From positions 3,536,153-3,560,152 of the forward strand of contig OZ253944.1 of NCBI GenBank assembly GCA_965267265.1: a DNA stretch of 24,000 nucleotides, read 5' to 3'. Numbering within the stretch: position 1 is the first letter of the stretch; each line of letters begins with the position of its first letter. The position numbers were made by a program, and so were the translations under genes. The DNA is from Parvibaculaceae bacterium (GTDB lineage: Bacteria > Pseudomonadota > Alphaproteobacteria > Parvibaculales > Parvibaculaceae). This document shows positions 1 through 16,208 of this stretch, in pieces. The notes under the pieces were generated by a model. It searched no databases. It had not been told where the DNA came from and saw nothing but the letters and a program-made list of their open reading frames with translations.

Positions 1-492
1 AGTCACCTCCGTGATGATTTCATCTTCCTCGAGGGCCGTTTCAAACATGCCCGTGAAGTAAGGTTCAGCATCGATTAAGCGCTTGGTGGTGTGGATCTTG
101 GCGTCGAGGCCCAGCACTGCAGCTGGGTAATCCGCCGCAGGGTCGTTGTTTGCAAGCGATCCTCCGATGGTGCCGCGATTGCGGACCGCCGGGTCACCGA
201 TATGGGAGGCCAGCTCCGCGAGTGCCGGCAGGTGTTTGGCGACTTCGGCAGAAGCGGCGACGTCCGCGTGTGTTGTGGCGGCGCCGATGGTGATTGCGTC
301 GCCTTCAGCTTTGATGAAATTGAGGTCCGCAATGTTACCGATATCGACAAGGGTTGCCGGCATCGCAAGCCGTTGCTTCAACGTTGGGATTAAGGTTTGT
401 CCTCCTGCGAGGAGCTTGTTTTCATCATTTGCGGCGAGAAGGTCAGCAGCTTCGGCGACAGTCTGTGCGCGGTGATAGTCAAACTGGTACAT
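1..492 (-). CDS. coxM: Mo-hydroxylase FAD-binding medium subunit (CoxM-like), 3'-truncated by the window edge
   Basis: Absent from the ORF track because it has no stop in the window. Manual reverse translation from ATG at 492..490 gives MYQFDYHRAQTVAEAADLLAANDENKLLAGGQTLIPTLKQRLAMPATLVDIGNIADLNFIKAEGDAITIGAATTHADVAASAEVAKHLPALAELASHIGDPAVRNRGTIGGSLANNDPAADYPA..., open to position 1. This is the typical FAD_binding_5 / CoxM-XdhB pattern (GGQTL, RNRGTIGGS). A GAGGAAG RBS lies in the 9-nt gap after the coxL stop. Confidence 0.85.
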   Translation of the reverse strand, partial: MYQFDYHRAQTVAEAADLLAANDENKLLAGGQTLIPTLKQRLAMPATLVDIGNIADLNFIKAEGDAITIGAATTHADVAASAEVAKHLPALAELASHIGDPAVRNRGTIGGSLANNDPAADYPAAVLGLDAKIHTTKRLIDAEPYFTGMFETALEEDEIITEVT

Positions 493-501
493 GGGTCTTC
501 C

Positions 502-2862
502 TCAATCGGCAGCGAGTGACGGGGTGGCGAGCGCCGCCCAAACACGTGCGGGGGTTGCTGGCATTTCAATTTCTCGGACGCCTAGAGCATCCGTAATGGC
601 GTTGATGACGGCTGGAGGTGATGCGATCGCACCGGCCTCACCACAGCCTTTCATGCCCATGGGATTGGACGGGCAGTCTGTCTGGGTGAAGCCCAGATTA
701 AAGTCTGGCAGGTCGTCGGCGCGGGGCATGCAATAGTCCATATAGGAACCGGTGATGAGCTGGCCGGTTTCGTCATAGTGAGCTGCTTCAAAGAGCGCTT
801 GTCCAATCCCCTGGGCAATGCCGCCCTGAACCTGTCCTTCGACGATCATTGGATTCACGATGACGCCGAAATCATCGACGGCGACAAAATTCACGATCCG
901 TGTCACCCCCGTTTCTGAATCGATTTCGACTTCGCAAATGTGACAGCCTGACGGGAAGGTGAAATTGAGCGGGTCATAGAATGCACTTTCCTTGAGGCCC
1001 GGCTCGAGCTCCGCGGTTGGGAAACCGTGCGCGGTGTAGGCACCAAGGGCGAGTTCCGCCCAGGCCAGCTCCTTATCGGTGCCAGCGACAGTAAAGACAC
1101 CATCTTTAAGCTCAATGTCGCCCGCGTCCGCTTCCATCAGGTGTGAGGCGATCTTCTTGGCTTTCGCTTCGATCTTATCAAGCGCATTTGCCAGAGCGCT
1201 CATGCCGACAGAGCCGGATCTGGAGCCATAGGTGCCCATCCCGAACTGGACGCGGCCTGTGTCGCCATGAATGATTTCGACATCTTCGATGGGGACGCCA
1301 ATCCGTTCACAGACAAGCTGTGCGAAGGTGGTTTCATGTCCTTGGCCATGACTATGGGCGCCGGTGAAGACTTCGATCTTGCCTGTCGGGGCCACTTGAA
1401 CTTCAGCACTTTCCCAAAGGCCCACGCCAGCGCCGAGGGACCCTACGGCCGCGGAAGGGGCCAGGCCGCAGGCCTCGATATACGTTGAGAAACCGATGCC
1501 GCGTTTTTTGCCCCGGCTCTCCGCCTCCGCCTTGCGAGCCGGGAAATTTTCGTAGTCAACCAGCGCCAGCGCTTTGTCGAGTGACGCTTCATAATCCCCA
1601 ATGTCATAGTTCATGATGACGGGGGTTTGGTGCGGGAAGCTGCGAATGAAATTTTTCCGCCTCAGTTCGGCAGGATCGAAGTTCAGTTCGCGGGCAGCAG
1701 TTTCCACAAGCCGTTCGATCAGATAAGTCGCTTCCGGCCGACCGGCGCCACGATAGGCGTCTACGGGCGCCGTGTGGGTGAAGACCCCATCCACTTCAAC
1801 GTAAATGGCTGGCAAGGCATATTGGCCTGAGAGCAGGGTGCCATAGAGATAGGTCGGTACCGATGACGCAAAGGTGGAGAGATAAGCGCCGAGATTGGCT
1901 TTGGTCTGGACATGCAGCCCGAGAAACGTCCCGTCCTCGGCGAGAGCCAATTCCGCGTGGCTGACATGGTCGCGGCCATGGGCGTCTGAAAGAAAGGACT
2001 CGCTGCGTTCCGCCGTCCACTTGATGGGACGTTTGATCTTTGCCGAGGCCCAGGCGCACGCTGTCTCTTCTGCGTAGATGAAGATTTTGGAACCAAATCC
2101 GCCACCCACGTCAGGTGCGATGACCCTGAGCTTGTGTTCGGGCGCGACCCCTACAAAGGCAGACAGCACAAGCCGTGCTACATGAGGGTTCTGGCTCGTG
2201 GTCCAGAGCGTGTATTCATCTGTGCCGCTGTCATAATCCGCAATGGCTGCCCTGGGTTCCATGGCGTTGGGAATAAGGCGATTGTTGGCGAGATCCAGCT
2301 TGATGATGTGTGCAGCGTTCTTAAACGCCGCTTCTGTCTCCGCCTTGTTTCCAAGCTCCCAGTCAAAGCTCGTATTGTTGGGCGCTTCGGCATGGACCTG
2401 AGGAGCTGATCCGTCCTGAGCGGAGCCCACATCTGCGGCCGCATCCAACACGTCGTAATCGACGTCGATGAGTTCAGCAGCGGACTTCGCTTGGGCGTAG
2501 GTTTCGGCCACCACCATCGCAACGTGGTCGCCGACATAGCGCACCGTGTCTTCTGCGAGGATCGGGTGTGCGCCAGCCTTCATTTCCGAGCCGTCTTTGG
2601 AGTGGACGGTCCAACCGCAGATCAACCCGCCGAGCCCATCAGCCGCCACATCAGATCCCGTAAAAATGCTGACAACACCTGGTGCTGCAACCGCTTCCGT
2701 CAGATCAATGCCATTGATTTTCGCGTGCGCATGGGGGCTGCGCAGAAAATATGCATGGGTTTGTCCTGGTCGGTTCAGGTCGTCTGTATAGCGTCCGGCA
2801 CCGGTAATGAAGCGCTTGTCTTCCTTGCGGCGGACGGCCTGTCCTATTCCTGTCGTGCTCAT
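502..2862 (-). CDS. coxL: Molybdopterin-binding large subunit of a form II CO-dehydrogenase-like hydroxylase (CoxL-II)
   Basis: 786-aa ORF with the aldehyde oxidase/xanthine dehydrogenase a/b-hammerhead and Mo-cofactor-binding pattern. Active-site loop reads [12 protein letters not shown] (AYRGAGR = form II, not AYXCSFR of genuine form I CODH). S-L-M gene order also fits form II. Confidence 0.9.
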
Positions 2863-2893
2863 GAATTCCTCCTCCCGGAATTCCCGTGCTGAC

Positions 2894-3361
2894 TCAAGCG
2901 GGCGTGGTTTCTGCAGCGTCTAGAATGGATTTGACGATGTTTTGGTAACCGGTGCAGCGGCAGATATTGCCTTCAAGCTCGGCACGGACCGTTTCTTCGT
3001 TCAAGTTTGGAATCCGATCGATCATGTCGACTGCTGTCATGATCATGCCGGGCGTGCAGAAGCCACACTGCAGGCCATGATTTTCTTTGAAGGCTTTTTG
3101 CACCGGATGAAGCTCATCACCGTTCGCCAATCCTTCAATAGTTGTAATGGTGCTGCCTTCGGCCTGCAGCGCGAGCATCGTACAGGCTTTGACGGCTTTT
3201 CCGTCCATGTGAATGACGCAAGCGCCGCATTGGCTTGTGTCACAACCAACATGGGTACCGGTCAGGCCCAGGTTCTCACGAATGAATTGGACCAGTAGTG
3301 TGCGGCCTTCGACGTCACCCGATACAGGTTTGCCGTTGACTGTCATAGAGACGAGAGCCAT
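2894..3361 (-). CDS. coxS: [2Fe-2S]-binding small subunit (CoxS-like)
   Basis: 155 aa. Two 2Fe-2S cysteine clusters are present: [10 protein letters not shown] (plant-type) and QCGFCTPGM...CRCTGY. GGAGGAACC RBS upstream. 31 nt upstream of coxL. Confidence 0.92.
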
Positions 3362-3501
3362 GGGTGGTTCCTCCCGAGGTTAGGCAGCGACCGATTTTGG
3401 CCGCCAGGACGTTCGCAGGCGCCCTTTGGGTTTCTTTGAAATAAGTCTCTGCGCTTGCTCGGTCGGCGTCAAGCCGCGCGGTGCCAAGTGCTGAACGCGC
3501 G

Positions 3502-4086
3502 TTACATAGTAACGACGTAGATCGCAATCAATGCGCCAGCGATCACAAGTGTGCCCCACATCCATGGAGCCAAGCCCATTCCGGCTTCCTCGTCAGGCAC
3601 GAGGGGTACATGAGTTGGCGCAATCGCGTCGACTTCTTCCTCTGTGGTGCCACCGGTGATGGCCGCGAACGAGGTAAAGAACTCGTCAGCCATTTTCTTG
3701 GCCGTAGAGTCAATGAAGCGCTGTCCAACCTGGGCGAGCTTGCCGCCGACGGTTGCTTGGACTTCATAGCTTAAGAGAGTGCCGTCTCCGTCTGGCGTCA
3801 GCTTTACGACGGCAGAGCCTTTCGCAAAGCCAGCCGCACCGCCTGATCCTTCGCCGCTGATTTTGTACCCGTTGGGCGCATCAATGTCAGAGAGTGTCAC
3901 ATTGCCTTTAAACTTGGCGCTGACCGGCCCGACTTTGGCTTTTGCTACGGCAGCGAATTCGGTATCGCTTATCTTTTCCACGCTTTCAGCGCCTGGAATG
4001 GACTGGTGCAGGACTTCCGGGTCGTTAAGCGCAGCCCAAACGTCAGCTTGTGGGGCAGGAATGCGGAATTCGCCAGTCATTTCCAT
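3502..4086 (-). CDS. coxG: CoxG-family (SRPBCC) protein with an acidic linker and a C-terminal transmembrane anchor
   Basis: N-terminal ~143 aa match the CoxG pattern (MEMTGEFRIPAPQADVWAALNDPEVL..IPG...VGPVSAKFKG...GGKLAQVGQRFID..AKKMADEFF). The C-terminus adds TTEEEVDAIAPTHVPLVPDEEAGMG followed by the hydrophobic LAPWMWGTLVIAGALIAIYVVTM. Confidence 0.85.
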   Translation of the reverse strand: MEMTGEFRIPAPQADVWAALNDPEVLHQSIPGAESVEKISDTEFAAVAKAKVGPVSAKFKGNVTLSDIDAPNGYKISGEGSGGAAGFAKGSAVVKLTPDGDGTLLSYEVQATVGGKLAQVGQRFIDSTAKKMADEFFTSFAAITGGTTEEEVDAIAPTHVPLVPDEEAGMGLAPWMWGTLVIAGALIAIYVVTM

Positions 4087-4128
4087 AACAGGTGGCCTTT
4101 TTTGCTCAAGAACGGTCGGAGTGATCCG

Positions 4129-5823
4129 TCACATATAGTTTAGCAGAAGCGTCGCGCCAAGGAGCACAGCAATCCAAAGCACCATTGATCCAGTGGGCCA
4201 AGCGCGGGCAAGGAGGCCTTCTGTACCATGCGCCCGGCCAAGGGCCGCGATCCCTATGTTTATGCTGCGCAGTCCCATACCGATAAGACCGCCCCAAACC
4301 GAACTGACGAGCGAACGAATTCCTTTGATCAGCGCCGGTCCCAACTTTCGATAGGTCCAATCGAAGTCCAGATTTACGGATTTCAGTTCGGGCGGATAGA
4401 TGCCGGTTCTCATCAACACCGTAAATGCGAGCGCTGAGAAGAAGAGCAGCTGCAGCTGGGTCACCACATGGGTGGTGGTATAGGGCACATAGTCTACTTC
4501 GTAAGGCAGCAACGCATAGAGGGGGTCTGGATAGACTCCGATCGCGATGCAGAGGAAGGCAGTCAAGCCCATGGCCAGCAACATATTCCAGGGTGCTTCC
4601 TTTGGACGGAGGCCACTGTCATGCGCAAAGAAGGCGAAATAGGGGATCTTGATGCCAGAATGGTGGAAGACGCCTGCTGACGCGAAGAGTAGGATACCCC
4701 AAACGATGTAATGCCCTTCATGCACGGACGCTGACAGGATCAGTGATTTCGTGACAAAACCTGAGAAGAGCGGGAAGGCCGAAATGGATGCGGCGCCGAT
4801 CACGCAGAAGAGCATGGTGAGCGGCATGGTTTTGTAGAGACCGCCCAGCTCAGAGCCCTTGGCCGTGCCTGTCCGGAAGAGGACAGCGCCCATACTCATG
4901 AACAAGAGGGCCTTGTAGAGAATATGGGCAAATGCATGGGCGGCTGTACCATTCAGCGCCAGTTCCGTTCCAACGCCAACGCCCACGACCATAAAGCCCA
5001 ACTGATTGTTGAGACTGTAGGCAAGCACTCGACGCAGATCGTTCTCGATCACAGCATAGAAGATCGGGAAGAGCGTCATGGTGGCGCCGATATAGATTAG
5101 GATCTCGGTGCCAGCGAAACCACGTGCCAGAGCATAGACAGCGAGTTTTGTGGTGAAGGCGGAGAGTACGACCGTGCCAGTGACCGTCGCAGCGGGATAG
5201 GCATCCTGAAGCCAGTTGTGGAGCAGCGGAAACGCGCACTTGATGCCAAAGGCGATGAAGATGAACCAGGTGGCGGGGCTCCCGAGCGTCATCGCTTCAA
5301 AGGCAATAGAGCCCGTATCGTGGTATTGAAGGACGACGCCCGCGAGCAGTATGACACCAGAGCCCACCTGAATGATCAGATAGCGCAAGCCGGTCCAGTA
5401 GGCGCCTTCTGTGCGCCTCGCCCAAATCAGGAAGACAGACGCAATGGCTGTGCCTTCCCAGAAAATGAACAGCGACACAAGGTCGCCCGCAAAGACCGCT
5501 CCGATGGCCGCCCCTGCATAGAGCAGCGACATGGTTTGCTGGATGGTATCCCGCACATGCCAGGCATAGATCAGCGCCAGGAAGGCGGCGAGGGAGAATA
5601 TGAGTCCGAATATGGTCGAGAGCTTGTCGACGCGCAGCAGGGTGAGTTCCTGTCCGACCAGGGTGAATTGACCATGCATGCCCTCCGGCATCATCCAGAT
5701 GAAATAGGCACTGATGACCGGCACAATTGCGGCAGCGAGGGCGCGGGGGTGGCCATTTGGTATGAGCGGCAGCAGCGCTGCACCGACAACAAACAGGAGG
5801 AAAGGCGGGAACAGATCAGTCAT
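4129..5823 (-). CDS. mrpD: Antiporter-like subunit, MrpD/NuoM-N family (third proton-conducting membrane transporter paralog)
   Basis: 564-aa polytopic membrane ORF. Signature HNWLQDAYPAATVTGTVVLSAFTTKLAVYAL resembles the MrpD/NuoN TM7-8 motif. Its ATG overlaps the upstream small ORF by 8 nt. Confidence 0.8.
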   Translation of the reverse strand: MTDLFPPFLLFVVGAALLPLIPNGHPRALAAAIVPVISAYFIWMMPEGMHGQFTLVGQELTLLRVDKLSTIFGLIFSLAAFLALIYAWHVRDTIQQTMSLLYAGAAIGAVFAGDLVSLFIFWEGTAIASVFLIWARRTEGAYWTGLRYLIIQVGSGVILLAGVVLQYHDTGSIAFEAMTLGSPATWFIFIAFGIKCAFPLLHNWLQDAYPAATVTGTVVLSAFTTKLAVYALARGFAGTEILIYIGATMTLFPIFYAVIENDLRRVLAYSLNNQLGFMVVGVGVGTELALNGTAAHAFAHILYKALLFMSMGAVLFRTGTAKGSELGGLYKTMPLTMLFCVIGAASISAFPLFSGFVTKSLILSASVHEGHYIVWGILLFASAGVFHHSGIKIPYFAFFAHDSGLRPKEAPWNMLLAMGLTAFLCIAIGVYPDPLYALLPYEVDYVPYTTTHVVTQLQLLFFSALAFTVLMRTGIYPPELKSVNLDFDWTYRKLGPALIKGIRSLVSSVWGGLIGMGLRSINIGIAALGRAHGTEGLLARAWPTGSMVLWIAVLLGATLLLNYM

Positions 5824-6172
5824 TGATCGTCTCCCGGCTTAGTTGGTCTTCGGGAAACGGCTCCGACTCAACATCTTTGGGTGAGTAATAGTCTTCGTCA
5901 CGCTTGAGGACCACGCGCATGGCACGTGCGCAGATGACGAGCGCAGCGCACATAAAGAATCCGTAGGCGGCGTAGAAGCCGGGAATGTCTTCAATGTCGA
6001 GATAGCTGTGCTTGTGATACATAAAGTCGGCTGCGACCAGGCCGGCGCAGAGAATGAAGAGCGCATAGACGATGCGGTCGACATTTTTCATATTGTCGAG
6101 CCAAAGTAGCTTGCGCCCGAGCCAAGGGAGCTTTGACGGATCTGTTTCGGGTGTCTTCATGTCGTCACTCAT
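5816..6172 (-). CDS. Small 2-TM membrane protein of unknown function embedded in the Mrp-like cluster
   Basis: Start re-set to MSDDMKTPETDPSK... (ATG 6172..6170), which forms an ATGA overlap with the stop of the upstream antiporter-like gene. Two hydrophobic helices (IVYALFILCAGLVAADFMY and FYAAYGFFMCAALVICARAM) and an acidic C-terminus. I recognise no family. The longer track ORF (to 6286) would overlap the upstream gene by 118 nt. Confidence 0.6.
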   Translation of the reverse strand: MSDDMKTPETDPSKLPWLGRKLLWLDNMKNVDRIVYALFILCAGLVAADFMYHKHSYLDIEDIPGFYAAYGFFMCAALVICARAMRVVLKRDEDYYSPKDVESEPFPEDQLSRETIND

Positions 6173-7677
6173 GGCTGGGGTGTCCCTTCCGGGAAGGCGA
6201 CCGGCTCGATCAAGGTGTAGATGTCGCCCGCATAAAAGAAGAGCAACAGGCAACCGATGGCCGTGAGGCAGGGTGGGACAACGCACCAGAGTGGCGCTTC
6301 TTGAATGCCCTTAGAAGGCACTGCGGCTGCGCCAAGCGAATGTGCGACCGGGCCAGGATTTCCCCTATAGAAGCCGCGCGCGACAACCGGCAGCAGGTAG
6401 GCGATGTTGAGAAGGGAACTCGCCATAAACACGACCATCATGATGATCTGGCCTGCGTCTGCGGCACCGAGCATCAGGTACCATTTGGACCAGGCGCCTC
6501 CTAAGGGCGGCAATCCGATAATGGAGAGGGCGCCGATAAAGAAGGCAGCGTAGGTGAAGGGCATCGCACGACCCAGACCATCCATGTCACTGATCTCAGT
6601 CTTGTGGGTCGCAACATAGATTGCGCCTGCGCACATAAAGAGGGTGATCTTGCCCATCGCATGCATGGCAATGTGCATGGCACCACCCATAACGCCTAGC
6701 GATGTGGCCAGCGCCATGCCGAGGGTGATGTAAGACAGCTGACTGATAGTTGAATAAGCGAGCCGTGCTTTCAGATTGTCTTTCGTCATGGCGACGATCG
6801 AGGCCGCCAGGATGGAGAAGGCGGCGAGCCACATGAGCCAATCTGCTGCGCCCGTCGTCGCCAGGAGGTCTATCCCGAAAATGTAGACACCCACTTTGAG
6901 CATGGTGAAGACACCGGCCTTCACGACGGCAACGGCATGCAGCAGGGCGCTGACTGGTGTCGGTGCCACCATAGCCGCCGGCAGCCATCGGTGAAACGGC
7001 ATCAGGGCCGCTTTGCCGATGCCAAAGGCGTAGAGCGCTAGCAAGAATGGTAGGAGTGTTGGATCGATCTTGTCCGCCAGGATGCCGCCCTGCTCGAAGT
7101 CCAGCGTTCCCGCGACAACCCATGTCCAGACGATTGCGACGAGCTGAAATCCAATGGAGGTGGTGATTAGAATACCTAGATAGGTGCGCGCACCTTTCCG
7201 TGCGACATCGGTTTCTTTGTGGGCAACCAGAGGGTAGGTTGAAAGGGTGAGCACTTCATAAAAAATGAAGAGCGTGAACATGTTGGCCGCGAAGGCGATG
7301 CCCATGGCCGCGGATATGGCAATCGCGAAGCAGATATAGAACCGGGTTTGGTTGGTCTCATTGTTCCCGCGCATGTAGCCTATAGAATAGAGCGCGGTAA
7401 CGATCCAGAGCCCTGCGGCCACGACGCCAAACAACATACCCAGAGGTTCAATTTCAAAGGCGAGTGACAGGCCTGGCAGCACATCAAACCAATGCGCCGT
7501 CGGTTGCGCGCCGTCGAGGACCGTTTGCAGCAATCCCAACACGATCACGAAAAGCCCGCCGGCGGTGAGAAGACTCACAGCCTCGCGGAGGTTCGGCTGC
7601 TTATCCAATACAGCCAGCAGGATCGTAGCGGCAGCAGGCAGGAGGATGGTAAGCGTGATTGCGAGTTCAGGACTCAT
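6169..7677 (-). CDS. Antiporter-like subunit resembling the N-terminal NuoL-like core of MrpA (no MrpA C-terminal domain)
   Basis: 502-aa polytopic ORF. Motif HRWLPAAMVAPTPVSALLHAVAVVKAGVF matches the NuoL/MrpA-type WLPxAMxxPTPVSALxHAxxxVxAGV signature as I remember it. Its length covers only the ~14-TM core. ATGA overlaps at both ends. Confidence 0.75.
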   Translation of the reverse strand: MSPELAITLTILLPAAATILLAVLDKQPNLREAVSLLTAGGLFVIVLGLLQTVLDGAQPTAHWFDVLPGLSLAFEIEPLGMLFGVVAAGLWIVTALYSIGYMRGNNETNQTRFYICFAIAISAAMGIAFAANMFTLFIFYEVLTLSTYPLVAHKETDVARKGARTYLGILITTSIGFQLVAIVWTWVVAGTLDFEQGGILADKIDPTLLPFLLALYAFGIGKAALMPFHRWLPAAMVAPTPVSALLHAVAVVKAGVFTMLKVGVYIFGIDLLATTGAADWLMWLAAFSILAASIVAMTKDNLKARLAYSTISQLSYITLGMALATSLGVMGGAMHIAMHAMGKITLFMCAGAIYVATHKTEISDMDGLGRAMPFTYAAFFIGALSIIGLPPLGGAWSKWYLMLGAADAGQIIMMVVFMASSLLNIAYLLPVVARGFYRGNPGPVAHSLGAAAVPSKGIQEAPLWCVVPPCLTAIGCLLLFFYAGDIYTLIEPVAFPEGTPQP

Positions 7678-9191
7678 TGGGTGACTCCCTCGCTTGCCAG
7701 ATCGGTCACCGAATAGAGCGCATTCGCAGCAACGGATGCCGCATCGCTGGTGAGCTCGCTGTTGATCCCAAAGTAGATGCTTGCCGCGACCAACGCATAG
7801 GTCGGCAGGATCATTGAGATCGGCGCCTCCTTCGCAGGGCGTCCGTCGGGCACAGGTTCTAGATACGCCACCTCAACAACCCGCCAGACGTAGACTACGG
7901 CGATGAGAGAGGAAGCGACGATCAGGCCAGCAATGAGAAGTGAGCCCGTCTCAAGCGACGCCTGGATCAAGTACCATTTTGAGATGAAGCCGACTGTCAG
8001 CGGAACCCCGATCAGGCTCAGGCCGCCGGCGGCCAGCGCGGCGGTCGTCCAAGGCATCGTCTTGCCTATGCCCTTAAGGTCGCCCAAGCGGCTGGATCCC
8101 ACCTGATAGACAAAACAGCCGACCGCCAAAAAGAGTGCCCCTTTGGTCACCGCATGGTTGAAGAGATGAATAATGCCCGCGGTGACGCCAGCTTCTGTCA
8201 GGAGTGCGACACCCAACAGCATGTATCCCACCTGTGCGACACTCGAATAGGCAAGCAGGCGCTTGATATCTTCCTGAAAGACCGCGGCGATTGAGGCCGC
8301 AAACATCGCCACAATAGCAAGAGGCATCACCACATACTCGAATGTCAGTCCCTGAATAGGATGATCGAACTGGAACACGGTGAACATGAAACGGAGCAGA
8401 ACATAGAGAGCTACTTTTGTGGCCGTCGCCGCCAGAAAGGCGGTTACTGCTGGTGGCGCGTAGCTATAGGCGTTTGGCAGCCACAGGTGCAGCGGGAACA
8501 TAGCGAGCTTTAGACCCATGCCCACCAGAATGAAGACGAAGGCGACGCGCGTTACGCGTGTGTCACCAACCTCTGGCAGGCGTACCGCAAGGTCGGCCAT
8601 GTTGAGCGTGCCAGTGACCATATAGAGGAAGCCCAGACCGATCACAAAGAAGGTTGCGCCGATCGTGCCCATGATCAGATAATTGTAAGCGGCTGTGAGC
8701 GCGCGCCGGTCCCGCTTGGCCCCGAAGGCAACAAGCGCATAGGTAGATAGGGATGATATCTCCAGGAACACGAACACGTTAAAGGCGTCACCTGTTGCTG
8801 CAACACCTAGCAACCCCGTCAGACAGAGTAGGTAACAGGTATAGAAATAGGCGTGAGTTGAGGCATCAAAATCCCGCTCAATGCTTCTACGGGCATAGGG
8901 AAGCACCAGCGCACCGACCAGCGATACAATGAACAGGACAAAGGCGTTGGCGGCGTCGATCCTGTACTCGATGCCCCAAGGCGGTGCCCAACCGCCCATC
9001 TGGTAGGAGATGACCGATCCGTCGAGCACAGACGCAAGAAGCAGCGCTGAAACGACGAAAGCTGCGGCTGACGCGACAAAAGCGATGCCCCAGGCCAGGT
9101 GCCGGTTCATAAACAACGCGCAGAGCGGCGCAGCGATAAGAGGTATGACTACCTGCAACGCAGGCAGATGAGGCGTGAGACTGCTCAACAT
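7674..9191 (-). CDS. mrpD: Antiporter-like subunit, MrpD/NuoM-N family
   Basis: 505-aa polytopic ORF. Motif HLWLPNAYSYAPPAVTAFLAATATKVALYVLLRF is MrpD/NuoN-like. It starts 3 nt after the mrpC stop. Confidence 0.8.
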   Translation of the reverse strand: MLSSLTPHLPALQVVIPLIAAPLCALFMNRHLAWGIAFVASAAAFVVSALLLASVLDGSVISYQMGGWAPPWGIEYRIDAANAFVLFIVSLVGALVLPYARRSIERDFDASTHAYFYTCYLLCLTGLLGVAATGDAFNVFVFLEISSLSTYALVAFGAKRDRRALTAAYNYLIMGTIGATFFVIGLGFLYMVTGTLNMADLAVRLPEVGDTRVTRVAFVFILVGMGLKLAMFPLHLWLPNAYSYAPPAVTAFLAATATKVALYVLLRFMFTVFQFDHPIQGLTFEYVVMPLAIVAMFAASIAAVFQEDIKRLLAYSSVAQVGYMLLGVALLTEAGVTAGIIHLFNHAVTKGALFLAVGCFVYQVGSSRLGDLKGIGKTMPWTTAALAAGGLSLIGVPLTVGFISKWYLIQASLETGSLLIAGLIVASSLIAVVYVWRVVEVAYLEPVPDGRPAKEAPISMILPTYALVAASIYFGINSELTSDAASVAANALYSVTDLASEGVTQ

Positions 9192-9194
9192 TTC

Positions 9195-9608
9195 TTAGCG
9201 TTCTCCGCCTGCCGTTGTGGCGTTTCTCGCCATCTCTTGTTCAATATCGAAGATTTCATCTTCTTCGATTGTGTCGAAGCTCTCGCGAATGCGGATGATC
9301 AACGCAAGCCCCAGAGCAGTCGTGGCGACACCAACGACAATGGCCGTCAGGATGAGCACATGCGGAAGCGGATTGGAGTAGACCTCTTCCTCATTGCCGG
9401 TGAGGATGGGGGCTGTGCCTCCGAATATTTTCGCCATGGATATGTAGAGCATAAAGACCGACACCTGAAACAGGTTGAGGCCGACGATCTTTTTAACCAG
9501 GTTGCCGCGGCTCACCACAACATAAAGACCGATCATCATCAGGACGATGGTCATCCAGTAGTTGTAGTGGCCCACAAAAAATTCGGCTGTCATTCCGTCC
9601 CACATCAC
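9195..9608 (-). CDS. mrpC: Cation:proton antiporter subunit C (NuoK-like)
   Basis: 137 aa, 3 TM. GNLVKKIVGLNLFQVSVFMLYIS and NPLPHVLILTAIVVGVATTALGLALIIRI are typical of MnhC/MrpC. 4-nt overlap with mrpB. Confidence 0.8.
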   Translation of the reverse strand: MMWDGMTAEFFVGHYNYWMTIVLMMIGLYVVVSRGNLVKKIVGLNLFQVSVFMLYISMAKIFGGTAPILTGNEEEVYSNPLPHVLILTAIVVGVATTALGLALIIRIRESFDTIEEDEIFDIEQEMARNATTAGGER

Positions 9609-10048
9609 CAGTCAGTGTCCTTGATATCAGGCGCGCGCGACGCAAACGCTATGAAGACGGCAATCATCACACTTGCGACGGTCAGTCCGACACCCGCCTC
9701 AACGAGGATGATGCCCAAATGTTGACCGCCAACCGCATGCTCGGCGTCTGCTAGGGCGGAATAGTCTAGGAAGTTCTTGCCTCGAATGAAGCTAACAGCG
9801 CCGGTTCCTGCATAGAGGAGGACCCCGAGCGCGATACCGGCGCGAACGACCGCCGGCGGTGCCACCTGCCGCAGCTTGTCCAGGCCATAGACGAGCCCAT
9901 AAAGGATGAAGCCCACGGCAAAAATCACACCAGCCTGAAAACCGCCACCTGGACCAAAGTCGCCATGGAATTGGACATAAAGAGCGTAGAGCAGAATAGG
10001 TGGAATGAGCATCTTTGAGACGACGCGTAGTATGAAGTGATGATCCAT
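9605..10048 (-). CDS. mrpB: Cation:proton antiporter subunit B (MnhB domain)
   Basis: 147 aa. Contains the MnhB hallmark HGDFGPGGGFQAGVIFA. Its start overlaps the upstream stop (TGATG). Confidence 0.8.
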   Translation of the reverse strand: MDHHFILRVVSKMLIPPILLYALYVQFHGDFGPGGGFQAGVIFAVGFILYGLVYGLDKLRQVAPPAVVRAGIALGVLLYAGTGAVSFIRGKNFLDYSALADAEHAVGGQHLGIILVEAGVGLTVASVMIAVFIAFASRAPDIKDTDW

Positions 10049-10566
10049 CAGGTATCTGCCCCCTCGCCATCATCTTCACGTCGGCGCCTTGTTGAGCTGT
10101 GGAGCAGCACAATGACCCCTATTCCCGCTGTGAAGATAACCACAACTTCGCCGAGCGTGTCATATCCCCTGTAGGAAGCGAGGACGGCGGTGACAATATT
10201 GGGAATGTCAATTTCCTTAGGTGTGCGGTCGATGTATTCCGGCGCCACATGTTTTTGCACGGGGGTATCGGCCGAACCAAAGGGCGGTAGATCAGCCGTG
10301 CCGTAAAGAAGCGCAGCGCCGGTCACAAATACAACGAGGAGCGGCAAAGCCCTGGAATGCTGCGCCGGTTTTTCTTCCTGCCTTGTCAGAGCCAGGGTCC
10401 CGAGCATGAGGACCGTCGAAATGCCCGCACCGACGGCGGCTTCTGTGAAGGCAACGTCGACGGCGTCCATCGCAACGAACAGACCAGCAGAGAGCAGACT
10501 GAACACGCCGGACAGCATGACGACAGCGAATAGGTTCCGCAGTTTCATGATCGCGATAGCTGTCAC
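10048..10566 (-). CDS. MbhD/MbhE-like subunit (DUF4040 plus MnhB-N-like segment; corresponds to the MrpA C-terminal / MrpB N-terminal region)
   Basis: 172 aa from GTG at 10566. DVAFTEAAVGAGISTVLML resembles the DUF4040/MbhD motif. NIVTAVLASYRGYDTLGEVVVIFTAGIGV resembles the MnhB N-terminal motif. The reading frame stays open upstream to 10620 and encodes a further hydrophobic helix, so the true start may be the ATA at 10608 (see findings). Confidence 0.7.
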   Translation of the reverse strand: MTAIAIMKLRNLFAVVMLSGVFSLLSAGLFVAMDAVDVAFTEAAVGAGISTVLMLGTLALTRQEEKPAQHSRALPLLVVFVTGAALLYGTADLPPFGSADTPVQKHVAPEYIDRTPKEIDIPNIVTAVLASYRGYDTLGEVVVIFTAGIGVIVLLHSSTRRRREDDGEGADT

Positions 10567-10604
10567 GATAAGAAAGCTGAAAAGGATGATGTCGATATAC
10601 GCTT

Positions 10605-10952
10605 CTATGACTTTGTCCCTTTCACATCTTCGTCATCATCGTTCTTGACCTCACCAAGCGGCCGAATGCCAGCGACGTAAGCCGCATTGGCGACGGCATG
10701 GGTGCCTGTCGGGCTTGTCAGGAAGACAAACAGGCCGATCAAGATGAGTTTGATCGTGACTTGGGTAAGGCCAGCCTGGAAAATCATGCCGAGCAGAATA
10801 AGTTCAGCCCCCGCGGTATCGATCACGCCCGCGCCATGTAGCCGCGACCAGAAGTCAGGCAAGCGGATCATGCCAAGTGCACCGACAATCAGAAAAAATC
10901 CGCCGAGAGCGAACGAAATCCAGCTGGCGATGTCGAGAGCGAGATCGATCAT
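10605..10952 (-). CDS. mrpG: Cation:proton antiporter subunit G
   Basis: 115 aa. GALGMIRLPDFWSRLHGAG matches the MnhG/PhaG pattern. 4-nt overlap with mrpF. Confidence 0.8.
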   Translation of the reverse strand: MIDLALDIASWISFALGGFFLIVGALGMIRLPDFWSRLHGAGVIDTAGAELILLGMIFQAGLTQVTIKLILIGLFVFLTSPTGTHAVANAAYVAGIRPLGEVKNDDDEDVKGTKS

Positions 10953-11254
10953 TCGGCCGCGCTCCCTTTGTTTTCGTTAGTAGGGATGTGTGACGTCCGA
11001 CCAAGCGCCCGATACCGGAAGAATTTGAGAATTGCGATTGTTCCAACGAAGTTGATGAGTGCGTAGAGCAGGGCGATATCGAGAAACTCAGGGCGTTCCG
11101 TCAGGAATCCAATCAGGCCAATGATCAGGACAGTCACCGTACCGAAGGCATTCACGGCCAATACGCGGTCATAAACCGTCGGTCCAAGAAAGGCCCTGAT
11201 GAGGATGAGTGCCATCGCGACAGAGACGGCCATGGTTGCGGCAGTAAACATCAC
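10949..11254 (-). CDS. mrpF: Cation:proton antiporter subunit F
   Basis: 101 aa, 3 TM. RAFLGPTVYDRVLAVNAFGT matches the MnhF pattern. 4-nt overlap with mrpE. Confidence 0.75.
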   Translation of the reverse strand: MMFTAATMAVSVAMALILIRAFLGPTVYDRVLAVNAFGTVTVLIIGLIGFLTERPEFLDIALLYALINFVGTIAILKFFRYRALGRTSHIPTNENKGSAAE

Positions 11255-11730
11255 GAGCGGCTCTCCACGGCAGAAACGCGCGCGCCCATATCATTGAGGG
11301 CGGCCAAATCGGCTGCGTCATCGGTCAGAGCATGGACCAGAAAGGAGTTACGTTCGGTCTCAACTGTGATCGTTCCAGGGGTCAAAGTGATCGAGTTTGC
11401 AAAAGTAACCCGTCCCACATCCGTTACCTGGTCGGCGGGAACATTGATCAGCCGCTGATTGAGCCGCATGCGGGGCGAAAGAATAACTTTGGAGACCGCC
11501 CAGTTAGCTTTGCCAATTTCTGAAGAGAGCCAAAAAAGGTATCCAAATACACCAAACTTCAATTGCAGCGGGATCGATTCATGATCGACGACCTCCATGC
11601 GCGCCGCGATGTAGACACAGGCAACACATGACGCGACTCCGAGACCCAAAAGCAGCGTGTTATCTAGATATCCTGATAGAAGAAGCCAGAGACCAAAAAG
11701 GCCCAAGCCCATAGTGACGGCGTGAATCAT
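11251..11730 (-). CDS. mrpE: Cation:proton antiporter subunit E
   Basis: 159 aa. Two N-terminal TMs, then ANWAVSKVILSPRM...FANSITLTPGTITVE, typical of MnhE. It is the first gene of the cluster, and a 328-nt divergent intergenic region lies upstream. Confidence 0.8.
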   Translation of the reverse strand: MIHAVTMGLGLFGLWLLLSGYLDNTLLLGLGVASCVACVYIAARMEVVDHESIPLQLKFGVFGYLFWLSSEIGKANWAVSKVILSPRMRLNQRLINVPADQVTDVGRVTFANSITLTPGTITVETERNSFLVHALTDDAADLAALNDMGARVSAVESRS

Positions 11731-11924
11731 ACCCCTGCTTTCGGACTAATAGCGCAATTTTGTTTTTTGTCATTGTTGCGCTGATCCTCGGAACGTGCTG
11801 CGACGGTCTCACTCTTTCTTCGTGTTTACCTTCAACAGCTCATCTCTTTTCTTAATCGCTCATCGTTAAGCCTGCAAGACGTGTGGACATTGAGGTACGC
11901 CTAAGCAAAAGCTGCGCTAGTGGG

Positions 11925-11953: not shown

Positions 11954-12064
11954 TAACCATTGCCTCTTTGGGGGGGGCACGCTGAAGATCAAAGACGGCC
12001 GGTCTGCCGCATGTGTGAGTTGCGTGAGTAGCGGTACCATATCCGGTCTGATTTCGGGGTGGGG

Positions 12065-12631
12065 ATGGAAGAACAATTCGAATCCACCGGTGAATCACCC
12101 GAAACGACTGTTGAAATACACGGCGTTGTTAAGTGGTTTGATTCGGTAAAGGGGTACGGGTTCCTGGTACCAGATGATGGTGCCGCGGACGTGTTGGTAC
12201 ACTCCTCGTGTTTGCGTCAGTTTGGGCGTGATACGTTAGAGGAAGGGGCCACGATTACCTGCGAGGCCGTAAAACGGCCAAAGGGCATGCAGGCTTCTAA
12301 GATTCTTGAGATTGATGACAGTACGGCGGTGCAGACAGCGCCCATCCGGCCGGCTGACAAAAATCCAGAGACAGCAGTGGTGCCGGTCGGTGATTTTGAG
12401 GTCGCTGTGGTGAAGTGGTTTAACCGGGCGCGCGGCTATGGTTTCGTCACGCGTGGTGATGGGACGCCCGACATCTTCGTGCATATGGAGACGTTACGAC
12501 GCTTTGGCATTCGGGAACTGGTGCCCGGCCAAGAGGTAAGTGTGCGGTTTGGTGAGGGACCAAAGGGTCTTATGGTGGCGGAAATATCCGCAAGCGGCGA
12601 CTCCAGCGATACGCCAGAGGATACGCATTAG
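12065..12631 (+). CDS. Cold-shock-domain protein with two tandem CSDs
   Basis: Two CSD units: [29 protein letters not shown] and [32 protein letters not shown] (RNP1-like K/RGYGF). Start placed at the ATG at 12065, after a GGGGTGGGG purine tract. The track ORF begins at GTG 12059. Two-CSD Csp proteins are known in alphaproteobacteria (Caulobacter CspC/CspD). Confidence 0.85.
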
Positions 12632-13229: not shown

Positions 13230-13306
13230 CGGGGCATGGCGCAGTCTGGTAGCGCACCTGGTTTGGGACCAGGGGGTCGCAAGTTCGAATCTTGCTGCCC
13301 CGACCA
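13230..13306 (+). tRNA. tRNA-Pro (anticodon UGG)
   Basis: Manual cloverleaf: acceptor CGGGGCA/TGCCCCG; D stem GCGC/GCGC; anticodon stem CCTGG/CCAGG with loop TTTGGGA; T stem GCAAG/CTTGC with loop TTCGAAT; discriminator A; encoded CCA. Confidence 0.93.
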
Positions 13307-16131: not shown

Positions 16132-16208
16132 GGTCCCGTAGCTCAACTGGATAGAGCAGCTGCCTTCTAAGCAGCAGGTTCGAGGTTCGAGTCCTCGCGG
16201 GATCGCCA
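16132..16208 (+). tRNA. tRNA-Arg (anticodon UCU)
   Basis: Manual cloverleaf: acceptor GGTCCCG/CGGGATC (one G-U); D stem GCTC/GAGC; anticodon stem GCTGC/GCAGC with loop CTTCTAA; T stem CGAGG/CCTCG with loop TTCGAGT; discriminator G; encoded CCA. Confidence 0.92.

What the first reader, a model, noticed from the sequence alone, without database searches (positions are those of the whole stretch)
1..11730. Fourteen-gene same-strand supercluster joins an Mbh/Mrp-type membrane module to a membrane-tethered form II Mo-hydroxylase (coxG-coxSLM)
**What the sequence shows**
- Every gene from mrpE (11730) to the truncated coxM (1) is on the minus strand.
- Within the Mrp-like part, all junctions are overlaps or gaps of 3 nt or less. 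The one exception is a 38-nt gap that a non-canonical start probably closes.
- coxG starts only 42 nt after the last antiporter-like gene (4087..4128). I see no hairpin plus T-run there.
- coxS follows 140 nt later (3362..3501). I see no convincing intrinsic terminator there either.
- CoxG here carries a C-terminal TM helix, so the soluble CoxSLM-type enzyme could be held at the membrane next to the Mrp-like complex.

**Precedent**
Mrp-derived modules are known to fuse with redox modules. Examples are complex I, Mbh, Mbx/Mbs, and the Thermococcus CODH-hydrogenase-Mnh cluster.

**Why this would be new**
No NuoB/NuoD/NuoH (MbhJ/L/M)-like connecting subunits are present. Any energetic coupling of a molybdo-flavo-FeS hydroxylase to a three-pump Mrp module would therefore need an interface that has not been described.

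**Null hypothesis**
A Na+(K+)/H+ antiporter operon may simply sit next to a cox-like operon.
Basis: partly seen in the sequence, partly recalled or inferred. Interest (0 to 1): 0.75.

Follow-up and report, generated by a model that had tools for sequence, protein, structure and literature searches.

The report
Mrp antiporter operon beside cox-like operon
A ten-gene Mrp-type cation/proton antiporter operon lies directly upstream of an ordinary quinone-linked molybdenum dehydrogenase (coxG-coxSLM) operon, and comparison with about 170 related loci indicates two self-sufficient neighbours kept together by family-level gene order, not a new coupled respiratory machine.

Summary
Fourteen minus-strand genes run from mrpE (11730) to a cut-off coxM (1). 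The junction sizes are as stated, CoxL is form II (AYRGAGR), and CoxG has a C-terminal TM helix. The 38-nt gap is closed by an ATA start.

The coupling interpretation is not supported.
1. **Mrp is usually alone.** The same 10-gene Mrp occurs in 80 species genomes (Alpha-, Beta-, Gammaproteobacteria, Gemmatimonadota). coxG directly follows D3 in only 10, those with a family name all Parvibaculaceae/Rhodobiaceae, where unrelated flanking genes are equally syntenic. Thirteen other alphaproteobacterial loci have coxG or cox within 10 kb, but divergent or separated by unrelated genes. Fifty-seven have none.
2. **Cox is usually alone.** Of 80 metagenomic loci with CoxL 60-72% identical, only 2 carry Mrp.
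3. **The two blocks separate.** One locus keeps the CSD-coxG context with no Mrp.
4. **Separate promoter-like element.** A cTTGAC-N17-nAnACT element lies between coxG and coxS in 15 of 16 loci.
5. **The CoxG tail is already known.** TM-anchored CoxG is the published quinone-shuttle architecture, and it occurs in most cox loci that lack Mrp.

Most likely these are two autonomous units, with possible read-through into coxG. Residual interest is the loose Mrp-cox proximity seen in several alphaproteobacterial lineages.

The parts
11251..11730 (-). mrpE, the first gene of the Mrp operon
   Evidence: Pfam MNHE, E = 8e-28. It is the first gene of the conserved order in 80 loci.
11849..11877 (-). Candidate mrp promoter: TTGCAG, 17-nt spacer, TAAGAA
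   Evidence: Aligned and conserved upstream of mrpE in the window, L001-L004 and L010. This is a consensus resemblance only, with no transcript data.
10949..11254 (-). mrpF
   Evidence: Pfam MrpF_PhaF, E = 1e-19.
10605..10952 (-). mrpG
   Evidence: Pfam PhaG_MnhG_YufB, E = 6e-25.
10048..10606 (-). Fused MbhD/MbhE-like subunit (the MrpA C-terminal domain, DUF4040). It starts at an ATA that overlaps the mrpG stop codon.
   Evidence: Pfam MbhD plus MbhE. The nearest solved chains are MBS 6u8y_E and 6u8y_D, MBH 6cfw_E and 6cfw_D, and the C-terminal part of MrpA. The N-terminal extension aligns with orthologues.
9605..10048 (-). mrpB
   Evidence: Pfam MnhB, E = 3e-29. NCBIfam PRK12508 scores 188.6 bits against a cutoff of 120.
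9195..9608 (-). mrpC (NuoK-like)
   Evidence: Pfam Oxidored_q2. NCBIfam PRK07375.1-6 scores above its cutoff.
7674..9191 (-). Antiporter-like subunit D1 (MrpD/NuoN-like)
   Evidence: Pfam Proton_antipo_M, E = 1e-63.
6169..7677 (-). Antiporter-like subunit D2 (resembles the N-terminal part of MrpA and NuoL)
   Evidence: Pfam Proton_antipo_M plus a weak Proton_antipo_N match.
5816..6172 (-). Small conserved membrane protein of 118 aa, with two hydrophobic segments that look like TM helices, lying between D2 and D3
   Evidence: It has no Pfam or PDB match. It has an ATGA overlap with D2 and an 8-nt overlap with D3. tblastn finds a homologue at the same position in 78 of the 79 loci that hold sequence upstream of D3.
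4129..5823 (-). Antiporter-like subunit D3 (PRK12668 type), the last Mrp gene
   Evidence: NCBIfam PRK12668 scores 732 bits against a cutoff of 564. The nearest solved chains are MBS H and H', MBH H, and MrpD/MrpA. Charged residues such as E123, K195, K226 and K359 are invariant in alignment A1.
4133..4160 (-). Promoter-like sequence inside the 3' coding end of D3: TTGGCG, 16-nt spacer, CTATAT
   Evidence: Present in the window, L001-L004 and L028, but not in L008, L010, L011 or L016. It may be a by-product of the Leu-Gly...Tyr-Met codons. Its status is uncertain.
4087..4128 (-). D3-coxG intergenic gap of 42 nt, with a ribosome-binding site and no terminator
   Evidence: The gap is 32-63 nt in all 10 adjacent loci and its sequence is not conserved.
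3502..4086 (-). coxG: SRPBCC domain, linker, and a C-terminal TM helix (a quinone-shuttle-type anchor)
   Evidence: Pfam COXG, E = 1e-37. The architecture matches published M. smegmatis CoxG (PMC12202499).
3444..3472 (-). Conserved promoter-like or operator-like element between coxG and coxS: TTGACG, 17-nt spacer, GAGACT
   Evidence: The cTTGAC and nAnACT blocks are the only conserved columns of the gap. They occur in 9 of 9 adjacent loci and 6 of 7 comparable non-adjacent loci. The background rate of the pattern is 0.003 per 150 nt.
2894..3361 (-). coxS, the small subunit with two [2Fe-2S] clusters
   Evidence: Pfam Fer2_2 plus Fer2.
502..2862 (-). coxL, a form II large Mo-cofactor subunit (AYRGAGR at residue 369)
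   Evidence: Pfam Ald_Xan_dh_C, MoCoBD_1 and MoCoBD_2. The motif is shown. It scores below the NCBIfam cutoffs for CO dehydrogenase (646 against 991) and for glyceraldehyde dehydrogenase (675 against 790).
1..492 (-). coxM, the FAD subunit: the N-terminal 164 aa, cut by the window edge
   Evidence: Pfam FAD_binding_5, E = 1e-47. In relatives the cluster continues with coxD (AAA), coxE (VWA), a split xdhC and mocA.

Best explanation
The region holds two self-sufficient gene sets that are neighbours by descent.

**1. A Group 3 (irregular-order, Mbh/Mbs-like) Mrp cation/proton antiporter with ten subunits.**
- The gene order is E-F-G-MbhD/E-B-C-D1-D2-small-D3.
- By homology to solved Mrp complexes, it uses the proton-motive force to move Na+ (or K+) through three antiporter-like subunits and the E/F/G end. 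This step is inferred, not shown.

**2. A form II cox-like molybdo-flavo-iron-sulfur dehydrogenase of unknown substrate.**
- Its electrons go CoxL (Mo) to CoxS (two [2Fe-2S] clusters) to CoxM (FAD), and then to a quinone.
- The membrane-tethered CoxG extracts the quinone from the bilayer and presents it to CoxM. This step is inferred from the published M. smegmatis mechanism.
- The cluster continues beyond the window with its own maturation genes: coxD, coxE, xdhC and mocA.

**Transcription.**
- The Mrp genes are translationally coupled and probably start from a promoter near 11850-11877.
- coxG, 42 nt after D3, is probably reached by read-through, or by a weak promoter embedded in the D3 end.
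- coxSLM... has its own conserved promoter-like element at 3444-3472.

The only link between the two modules is indirect. Both act on the same membrane energy budget: cox feeds the quinone pool, and Mrp spends proton-motive force.
For: - **Mrp stands alone in most lineages.** In 80 species genomes the 10-gene order is conserved. In 57 of them nothing cox-like lies within 10 kb, apart from one locus (L047) with an unrelated cox paralogue. The neighbours differ by clade and are housekeeping genes: RodA/PBP2, DAHP-synthase-family, glycosyltransferases, MsrB, HemD/X/Y and NUDIX.
- **Cox stands alone in most lineages.** Of 80 metagenomic loci with CoxL 60-72% identical to the window's, 2 carry Mrp. 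Among loci with coxG first and at least 5 kb of upstream sequence, the count is 2 of 13.
- **Direct adjacency (10 of 80) is limited to a few related lineages.** Those with a family name are Parvibaculaceae or Rhodobiaceae; three are unclassified alphaproteobacteria. There the flanking NDUS4, 4HBT thioesterase, two-domain cold-shock gene and alpha-amylase are conserved as well. The linkage is therefore no stronger than general regional synteny.
- **The blocks are separable.** One locus has the same NDUS4-4HBT-CSD context running straight into coxG with no Mrp.
- **Other arrangements are not one operon.** In the 13 loosely linked loci, cox is divergent from mrpE or separated from D3 by an aminotransferase, an MFS transporter or other unrelated genes.
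- **Internal promoter-like element.** It is conserved between coxG and coxS in 15 of 16 loci, against a background of 0.003 per 150 nt. Non-adjacent coxG genes have their own CTTGCC-N17-CTAnGT element.
- **The TM-tailed CoxG is the known quinone-shuttle architecture** (PMC12202499). It occurs in 18 of 30 CoxG proteins from the reverse survey, nearly all without Mrp.
- **No coupling subunits.** No NuoB/D/H-type subunit occurs in the window.
Against: - **The linkage is not limited to very close relatives.** Within Parvibaculaceae it persists down to 69% D3 identity and 57% CoxG identity, with a consistently short D3-coxG gap of 32-63 nt.
- **Proximity beyond the adjacent clades exceeds chance.** Thirteen further alphaproteobacterial loci keep coxG within 10 kb of this Mrp in at least three different arrangements. 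Nine show further cox genes. Two end just after coxG, one has coxG alone, and one pairs it with a different large subunit. This is far more than the roughly 1% I estimate for random placement (my estimate, not computed). One metagenomic lineage with a divergent D3 (42% identity) also has coxG directly after D3 (L090). That pattern could reflect selection for proximity.
- **No expression data were available.** The promoter-like elements are consensus and conservation inferences only.
Confidence: 0.78

Rival explanations
1. This is a loose functional association (an 'uber-operon') without physical coupling. The Mrp antiporter and the cox-like dehydrogenase are co-expressed under the same conditions, for example salt or alkaline stress combined with energy limitation. 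Electrons from the cox substrate would top up the quinone pool and the proton-motive force that Mrp consumes. Selection would then keep the two units close together.
For: - Cox lies within 10 kb of this Mrp in 23 of 80 loci, in several arrangements: directly downstream, 1.7-8.6 kb downstream, divergent upstream, and beside an inverted small-D3 pair in L080.
- The D3-coxG gap is short in all adjacent loci.
- No terminator lies between the two units.
Against: - Unrelated neighbours are retained across the same lineages. The cold-shock-domain gene is retained to about the same extent, and ABC transporter genes, an NMT1-like binding protein and DUF192 in fewer loci. This points to slow decay of an ancestral region rather than selection.
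- Variable insertions between D3 and coxG are tolerated.
- Linkage is absent in 57 of 80 Mrp loci and 78 of 80 cox loci.
- The units have separate conserved promoter-like elements.
Confidence: 0.16
2. This is a new redox-driven ion pump. CoxSLM would dock, through the CoxG TM tail, onto the three-pump Mrp module (perhaps at D3 or the small subunit). It would drive ion translocation through an interface that replaces the NuoB/D/H (MbhJ/L/M) connecting module.
For: - Same-strand contiguity, with coxG directly after D3 in 10 genomes and in L090.
- The nearest solved relatives of D3 and of the split D/E subunit are the redox-coupled MBS and MBH complexes rather than a bacterial Mrp.
- In L080, cox sits next to the small-D3 pair after a rearrangement.
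Against: - No quinone-site or E-channel subunit is present to transmit redox energy.
- The CoxG tail motif (S/L-P-x-x-W followed by a hydrophobic helix) is the same in loci with and without Mrp.
- The D3 C-terminus is conserved whether or not cox is nearby.
- Each module occurs alone in most lineages.
- CoxG already has a sufficient published role as a diffusible quinone carrier.
- In many loci the two sets are on opposite strands or separated by unrelated genes.
Confidence: 0.04

Closest known systems
Group 3 (irregular-order) Mrp/CPA3 antiporters, for example the Aphanothece halophytica mrpCD1D2EFGAB cluster, shown to act as a Na+/H+ antiporter (Ito et al. 2017, PMC5703873)
   Same: - All Mrp subunit types are present.
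- MrpA is split into an antiporter-like part and a short DUF4040 (MbhD/E-like) part.
- There is more than one MrpD-like gene.
- The gene order E-F-G-A'-B-C-D-D is a cyclic permutation of C-D-D-E-F-G-A-B.
- The cluster stands alone, with no redox module.
   Different: - It has a third antiporter-like subunit (D3, PRK12668 type).
- It has a conserved 2-TM small protein between D2 and D3.
- No member of this 10-gene form has been tested biochemically, as far as my searches show.
Membrane arms of the Pyrococcus MBH (PDB 6cfw) and MBS (PDB 6u8y) respiratory complexes, and the stand-alone archaeal Mrp
   Same: - These are the nearest solved sequences for D3 (MbsH, MbsH', MbhH) and for the D/E subunit.
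- The gene order is the same: MbhA-B-C-D-E-F-G-H corresponds to MrpE-F-G-D/E-B-C-D.
   Different: MBH and MBS carry the NuoB/D/H/I-type module (MbhJ-N) that couples redox chemistry to the pumps. Nothing of that kind is present in the window.
Mo-CODH/xanthine-oxidase-family enzymes served by the CoxG quinone shuttle (M. smegmatis; Kropp et al. 2025, PMC12202499)
   Same: - CoxS, CoxL and CoxM subunits are present.
- CoxG has an N-terminal SRPBCC domain, a flexible linker and a C-terminal membrane helix.
- coxG lies in the same cluster as the structural genes.
- Maturation genes coxD, coxE, xdhC and mocA lie downstream.
   Different: - CoxL is form II (AYRGAGR, not the CO dehydrogenase active-site loop) and scores below the CO dehydrogenase equivalog cutoff. 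The substrate is therefore unknown.
- The gene order is coxG-S-L-M, with coxG first and set off by a promoter-like gap.
Thermococcus onnurineus CODH-hydrogenase-Mnh cluster
   Same: An Mrp/Mnh-type module is encoded next to an enzyme annotated as CO dehydrogenase.
   Different: From general knowledge, not tested here: that system uses an anaerobic Ni-CODH feeding an Mbh-type [NiFe] hydrogenase, which has the NuoB/D/H-like coupling subunits. Here the enzyme is an aerobic-type molybdenum hydroxylase that reduces quinone, and no hydrogenase or coupling subunits are present.

Membership tests
Mrp / CPA3 multisubunit cation:proton antiporter (Group 3) | Homologues of all seven Mrp subunits (A-G) encoded together | tested here: met
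   E, F, G, B and C each match their own Pfam family. MrpA is represented by D2 (the antiporter part, with a weak Proton_antipo_N match) plus the MbhD/E-like gene. MrpD is represented by D1 and D3.
Mrp / CPA3 multisubunit cation:proton antiporter (Group 3) | Antiporter-like subunits keep the conserved charged channel residues | tested here: inconclusive
   Glu and Lys residues such as E123, K195, K226 and K359 are invariant in the 15-sequence D3 alignment. I did not map them onto a solved structure.
Mrp / CPA3 multisubunit cation:proton antiporter (Group 3) | Measured Na+(K+)/H+ antiport activity | not testable with these tools
   This needs vesicle assays or complementation of a salt-sensitive E. 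coli strain.
MBH/MBS/complex I-type redox-driven pumps | NuoB/NuoD/NuoH/NuoI (MbhJ/L/M/N) coupling module encoded with the membrane arm | tested here: not met
   None of the window ORFs scanned carries these domains. None was among the recurrent neighbour families that I annotated from the 80 loci.
Form II cox-like molybdenum hydroxylase (xanthine oxidase family) | CoxL with the AYRGAGR active-site motif, a CoxS with two [2Fe-2S] clusters and a CoxM with FAD, in S-L-M order | tested here: met
   AYRGAGR lies at residue 369. The order is read from the coordinates.
Form I [MoCu] CO dehydrogenase | Score above the CO_dehy_Mo_lg equivalog cutoff, and the form I active-site loop | tested here: not met
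   TIGR02416 scores 646 bits against a cutoff of 991. The motif is AYRGAGR.
CoxG quinone-shuttle / membrane-anchor proteins | COXG (SRPBCC) domain, linker and C-terminal TM helix, encoded with coxSLM | tested here: met
   Pfam COXG, E = 1e-37. The hydrophobic tail is shown.
CoxG quinone-shuttle / membrane-anchor proteins | Binds quinone and docks on CoxM | not testable with these tools
   This needs lipid mass spectrometry or structural work. No multimer modelling tool was available.
Single 14-gene operon ('supercluster') | Same strand, short gaps, no terminator | tested here: met
   No terminator was found.
Single 14-gene operon ('supercluster') | No conserved internal promoter | tested here: not met
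   A conserved cTTGAC-N17-nAnACT element lies in the coxG-coxS gap in 15 of 16 loci.
Single 14-gene operon ('supercluster') | Linkage conserved across families and orders | tested here: not met
   Direct adjacency occurs in 10 of 80 loci; those with a family name are Parvibaculaceae or Rhodobiaceae. In 13 of 80 loci cox is loose or rearranged, and in 57 of 80 it is absent. In the reverse survey 2 of 80 loci carry Mrp.

The most novel reading that the evidence does not exclude
The repeated closeness of this cox orthologue to this three-pump Mrp is real and selected. It is seen in Parvibaculaceae, in several unnamed alphaproteobacterial lineages and in one lineage with a very divergent D3, and it survives inversions and insertions. 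The reason would be that the membrane-tethered CoxG-CoxSLM enzyme docks on the D3/small-subunit end of the Mrp complex. That would make a molybdenum-hydroxylase-driven or -regulated ion pump that lacks the canonical NuoB/D/H coupling module.
Probability: 0.04. Interest if true: 0.85.

Novelty: new member of a known kind. Interest (0 to 1): 0.25.

Why it matters
If the two modules were coupled, this would be a new way of attaching a redox enzyme to an Mrp-type pump, and that would bear on how complex I-like machines evolved. The evidence instead points to an ordinary juxtaposition.

What remains useful:
- **A clean description of a widespread but uncharacterised 10-gene Mrp form.** It has three antiporter-like subunits, a conserved small membrane protein with no family assignment, and a split MrpA.
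- **A conserved regulatory element in a common form II cox cluster.** It lies between coxG and coxS.
- **Cultured strains in which co-transcription or association could be tested cheaply.** These are Tepidicaulis marinus, Parvibaculum indicum DSM 25305 and strain Mf 1.05b.01.

Tried and rejected
- **Riboswitch or known RNA in the gaps.** Rfam gave nothing, either at gathering thresholds over the whole window or at E <= 1 over 3300-4200.
- **Hidden terminator or stable RNA structure in the two gaps.** Fold energies do not differ from shuffles, and the terminator scan found none there.
- **A different redox partner beside this Mrp in other clades.** Recurrent neighbours are unrelated housekeeping genes.
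- **Showing that Mrp moved horizontally without cox.** I built D3 and concatenated D1+D2+D3 neighbour-joining trees. The cox-less Rhodobacterales and Rhizobiaceae-labelled loci group beside the two cox-adjacent clades. The deep nodes have only 47-60% bootstrap support, so I draw no conclusion.
- **A promoter for coxG inside the D3 3' end.** The sequence TTGGCG-N16-CTATAT is present in the window's own clade but not in L008, L010, L011 or L016. The Leu-Gly...Tyr-Met codons could explain it, so I leave it as uncertain.
- **Literature on an Mrp-cox or Mrp-CoxG link, or on this Mrp form.** Nothing was found.
- **Pfam and PDB searches for the small subunit.** No hit.
- **First ORF caller.** My first crude caller picked antisense shadow ORFs. 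I replaced it with a caller trained on codon usage before reading the neighbourhoods (then).

Full report
**1. What is in the window**

- The Mrp part is mrpE (11251-11730), mrpF, mrpG, a fused MbhD/MbhE-like gene, mrpB and mrpC. These are followed by three Proton_antipo_M proteins: D1 (7674-9191), D2 (6169-7677) and D3 (4129-5823, NCBIfam PRK12668, above cutoff).
- A small ORF lies between D2 and D3.
- Then come coxG (3502-4086), coxS (2894-3361), coxL (502-2862) and the first 164 codons of coxM (1-492).
The 38-nt gap after mrpG is closed by an ATA start at 10606, because the upstream in-frame peptide aligns with the N-terminus of the Tepidicaulis orthologue.
- The small gene starts at ATG 6172, forming an ATGA overlap with D2. 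It encodes 118 aa with two hydrophobic segments that look like TM helices, and it has no Pfam or PDB match.
- CoxL carries AYRGAGR, which marks form II. CoxG ends in a hydrophobic helix.
- Neither intergenic gap holds a terminator, a stable fold or a known RNA family.
- The nearest relatives of the window are in Parvibaculaceae. D3 is 89% identical to that of strain Mf 1.05b.01.

**2. The Mrp side of the neighbourhood survey**

A scan of one genome per species with a D3 profile found at least 590 matches, and the best 80 loci were kept. They come from Alpha-, Beta- and Gammaproteobacteria and one Gemmatimonadota genome, with D3 62-89% identical to the window's.

The 10-gene order, small protein included, is conserved nearly everywhere. 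The position of cox differs:

| Arrangement | Loci | Notes |
|---|---|---|
| coxG directly after D3 | 10 of 80 | L001-L004, L008, L010, L011, L016, L028, L069. Those with a family name are Parvibaculaceae or Rhodobiaceae; three are unclassified alphaproteobacteria. |
| An orthologous coxG (52-69% identical) within 10 kb, arranged differently | 13 of 80 | Nine also show coxS with coxL or coxM (CoxL 56-64% identical where present). Two end just after coxG, one has coxG alone, and one pairs it with a different large subunit. Some are divergent upstream of mrpE (L023, L036, L046, L074, and L032 at about 3.7 kb). Some lie 1.7-8.6 kb downstream, past an aminotransferase, an MFS transporter or other unrelated genes (L071, L049, L034, L055, L042, L025, L068). 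One sits beside an inverted small-D3 pair (L080). |
| No orthologous cox within 10 kb | 57 of 80 | In 6 of these, less than 1 kb follows D3, so they are uninformative about the downstream side. One (L047) has an unrelated cox paralogue nearby. |

In the 57 loci without cox, the neighbours are specific to each clade and unrelated to redox chemistry. They include RodA/PBP2, a DAHP-synthase-family enzyme, glycosyltransferases, MsrB, prolyl oligopeptidase, HemD/X/Y and NUDIX. No other redox module takes the place of cox.

**3. The cox side**

In relatives the cox cluster continues beyond the window. The full order is coxG-S-L-M, then coxD (AAA), coxE (VWA), a split xdhC and mocA. It is a complete enzyme-plus-maturation unit.

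- **Close CoxG homologues.** I looked up nine homologues 58-69% identical to the window's CoxG.
  - Eight showed the same region of about 20 kb: NDUS4, 4HBT thioesterase, a divergent two-domain cold-shock gene, Mrp, cox, and often an alpha-amylase.
  - Within this family the functionally unrelated flanks are therefore as conserved as the Mrp-cox junction.
  - The ninth has the same NDUS4-4HBT-CSD context running directly into coxG, with no Mrp.
- **Metagenome scan.** A scan with a CoxL profile, headed by a consensus sequence so as not to favour one lineage, returned 80 loci whose CoxL is 60-72% identical to the window's.
  - Only two carry Mrp. In L090 coxG lies directly after a divergent D3. 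In L118 there is a 1.4-kb gap.
  - Restricting to loci with coxG first and at least 5 kb of upstream sequence gives 2 of 13.

**4. Transcription signals**

- **coxG-coxS gap.** Aligning the gap shows only two conserved blocks, cTTGAC and nAnACT, 17 nt apart (window 3472-3467 and 3449-3444).
  - They occur in 9 of 9 adjacent loci and in 6 of 7 comparable non-adjacent loci.
  - The pattern occurs at 0.003 per 150 nt in the 2.9 Mb of locus sequence.
  - I read this as a promoter, or a promoter plus operator, for coxSLM. The generic scan missed it because its -10 hexamer is weak.
- **coxG where it is not adjacent to D3.** It has its own upstream CTTGCC-N17-CTAnGT element.
- **coxG where it is adjacent to D3.** The gap is 32-63 nt, not conserved in sequence, and holds only a ribosome-binding site. 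Read-through from mrp is the simplest inference.
- **A possible embedded promoter.** A promoter-like sequence inside the D3 end (4133-4160) exists in the window's own clade, but coding constraint may explain it.
- **Upstream of mrpE.** A candidate mrp promoter is conserved there.
- None of these signals is backed by transcript data.

**5. The proposed physical link**

- That tail is the normal architecture of CoxG. [quoted passage not shown] It extracts menaquinone and delivers it to the FAD site of CoxM. CoxG is associated with non-CODH family members as well (PMC12202499).
- In my reverse survey, 18 of 30 CoxG proteins have such a tail, and nearly all of them come from loci without Mrp. The tail motif (S/L-P-x-x-W, then a hydrophobic helix) looks the same with or without Mrp.
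- The D3 C-terminus is likewise conserved irrespective of cox.
- So neither partner shows any feature specific to the adjacency, and cox already has a complete electron route to quinone.

**6. Comparison with known systems**

- The Mrp is a Group 3 (irregular-order) Mrp in the sense of Ito et al. 2017 (PMC5703873). It has a split MrpA and several D genes, like the cyanobacterial mrpCD1D2EFGAB cluster that works as a Na+/H+ antiporter. It differs in having a third D subunit and the small protein.
- By sequence, D3 and the D/E subunit are closest to the MBS and MBH membrane arms (6u8y, 6cfw) and next to bacterial Mrp structures.
- The MbhJ-N coupling module that defines those respiratory complexes is absent, however.
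- The cox part is a typical form II cluster of unknown substrate. It scores below the equivalog cutoffs for CO dehydrogenase and for glyceraldehyde dehydrogenase.

**7. Verdict**

- **Shown.** The anatomy; the distribution of the linkage; the separability of the two blocks; the conserved element in front of coxS; and the generality of the CoxG tail.
- **Inferred.** Antiport activity; quinone delivery by CoxG; read-through into coxG; and promoter function.
- **Best reading (about 0.78).** These are two autonomous units, adjacent by descent in Parvibaculaceae.
- **Rival 1 (about 0.16).** A looser physiological or regulatory association is possible, because cox stays within 10 kb of this Mrp in several other alphaproteobacterial lineages despite rearrangements. 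However, an unrelated neighbour, the cold-shock gene, is retained to about the same extent in the same lineages, and others in fewer loci. Insertions between the two units are also tolerated.
- **Rival 2 (about 0.04).** True energetic coupling is not excluded, but nothing found here supports it.
- I found no paper describing this juxtaposition.

Noticed in passing
window 10604-10606 (minus strand): The mbhD/E-like gene appears to start at an ATA codon overlapping the mrpG stop (sequence TCATAG). The same GTCATAGAAGC sequence is in L001. Tepidicaulis has ATG at the equivalent position, and the encoded N-termini align.
   Followed up: yes
window 5816-6172 (minus strand); same position in 78 of the 79 loci among L001-L080 that hold sequence upstream of D3: A small protein of 83-129 aa, with two hydrophobic segments in the window copy, always lies between D2 and D3, usually translationally coupled to both. 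It has no Pfam family and no PDB sequence match. It is an uncharacterised conserved subunit of this Mrp form.
   Followed up: partly
L058 8128-11620; L060 8127-11620: In two gammaproteobacterial metagenome-assembled genomes, the D2-small-D3 trio stands alone. No mrpE/F/G/A'/B/C genes lie within 10 kb upstream, and the region downstream shows no Mrp hits either. This suggests that the trio is a separable sub-module.
   Followed up: no
window 3444-3472 (minus strand); coxG-coxS gaps of L001-L080: A cTTGAC-N17-nAnACT element is conserved between coxG and coxS across lineages whose CoxL proteins are only 56-65% identical. It is probably the promoter or operator of this form II cox family. The regulator is unknown.
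   Followed up: partly
window 12059-12631 (plus strand): A gene for a 190-aa protein with two cold-shock domains is divergent from mrpE. This pairing is conserved in Parvibaculaceae and in seven other loci (L025, L030, L047, L049, L055, L066, L071). It is retained about as widely as the Mrp-cox proximity.
   Followed up: partly
window 13230-13306 and 16132-16208 (plus strand): tRNA-Pro(TGG) and tRNA-Arg(TCT) bracket a segment of about 2.9 kb holding two alpha/beta-hydrolase genes (13419-14420 and 14450-15349). Several Parvibaculaceae relatives have an NDUS4-like gene near this position instead.
   Followed up: no
L071 13393-15526; L023 657-4049; the P0236 locus: Some related cox clusters run coxG-(x)-coxS-coxM with no coxL between S and M, and no coxL in the sequence held. 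The large subunit must be encoded elsewhere or has been lost.
   Followed up: no
L090 4962-9925: In a metagenomic lineage with a divergent D3 (42% identical), coxG still directly follows D3. About 2.1 kb has been inserted between coxG and coxS. The content of the insertion was not examined.
   Followed up: no
L080 1-17220: Here the mrpE-to-D2 block is inverted relative to small-D3. The full cox cluster, preceded by a DUF4149 gene, is divergent from small-D3. This shows that the Mrp operon can be split between D2 and the small gene.
   Followed up: partly
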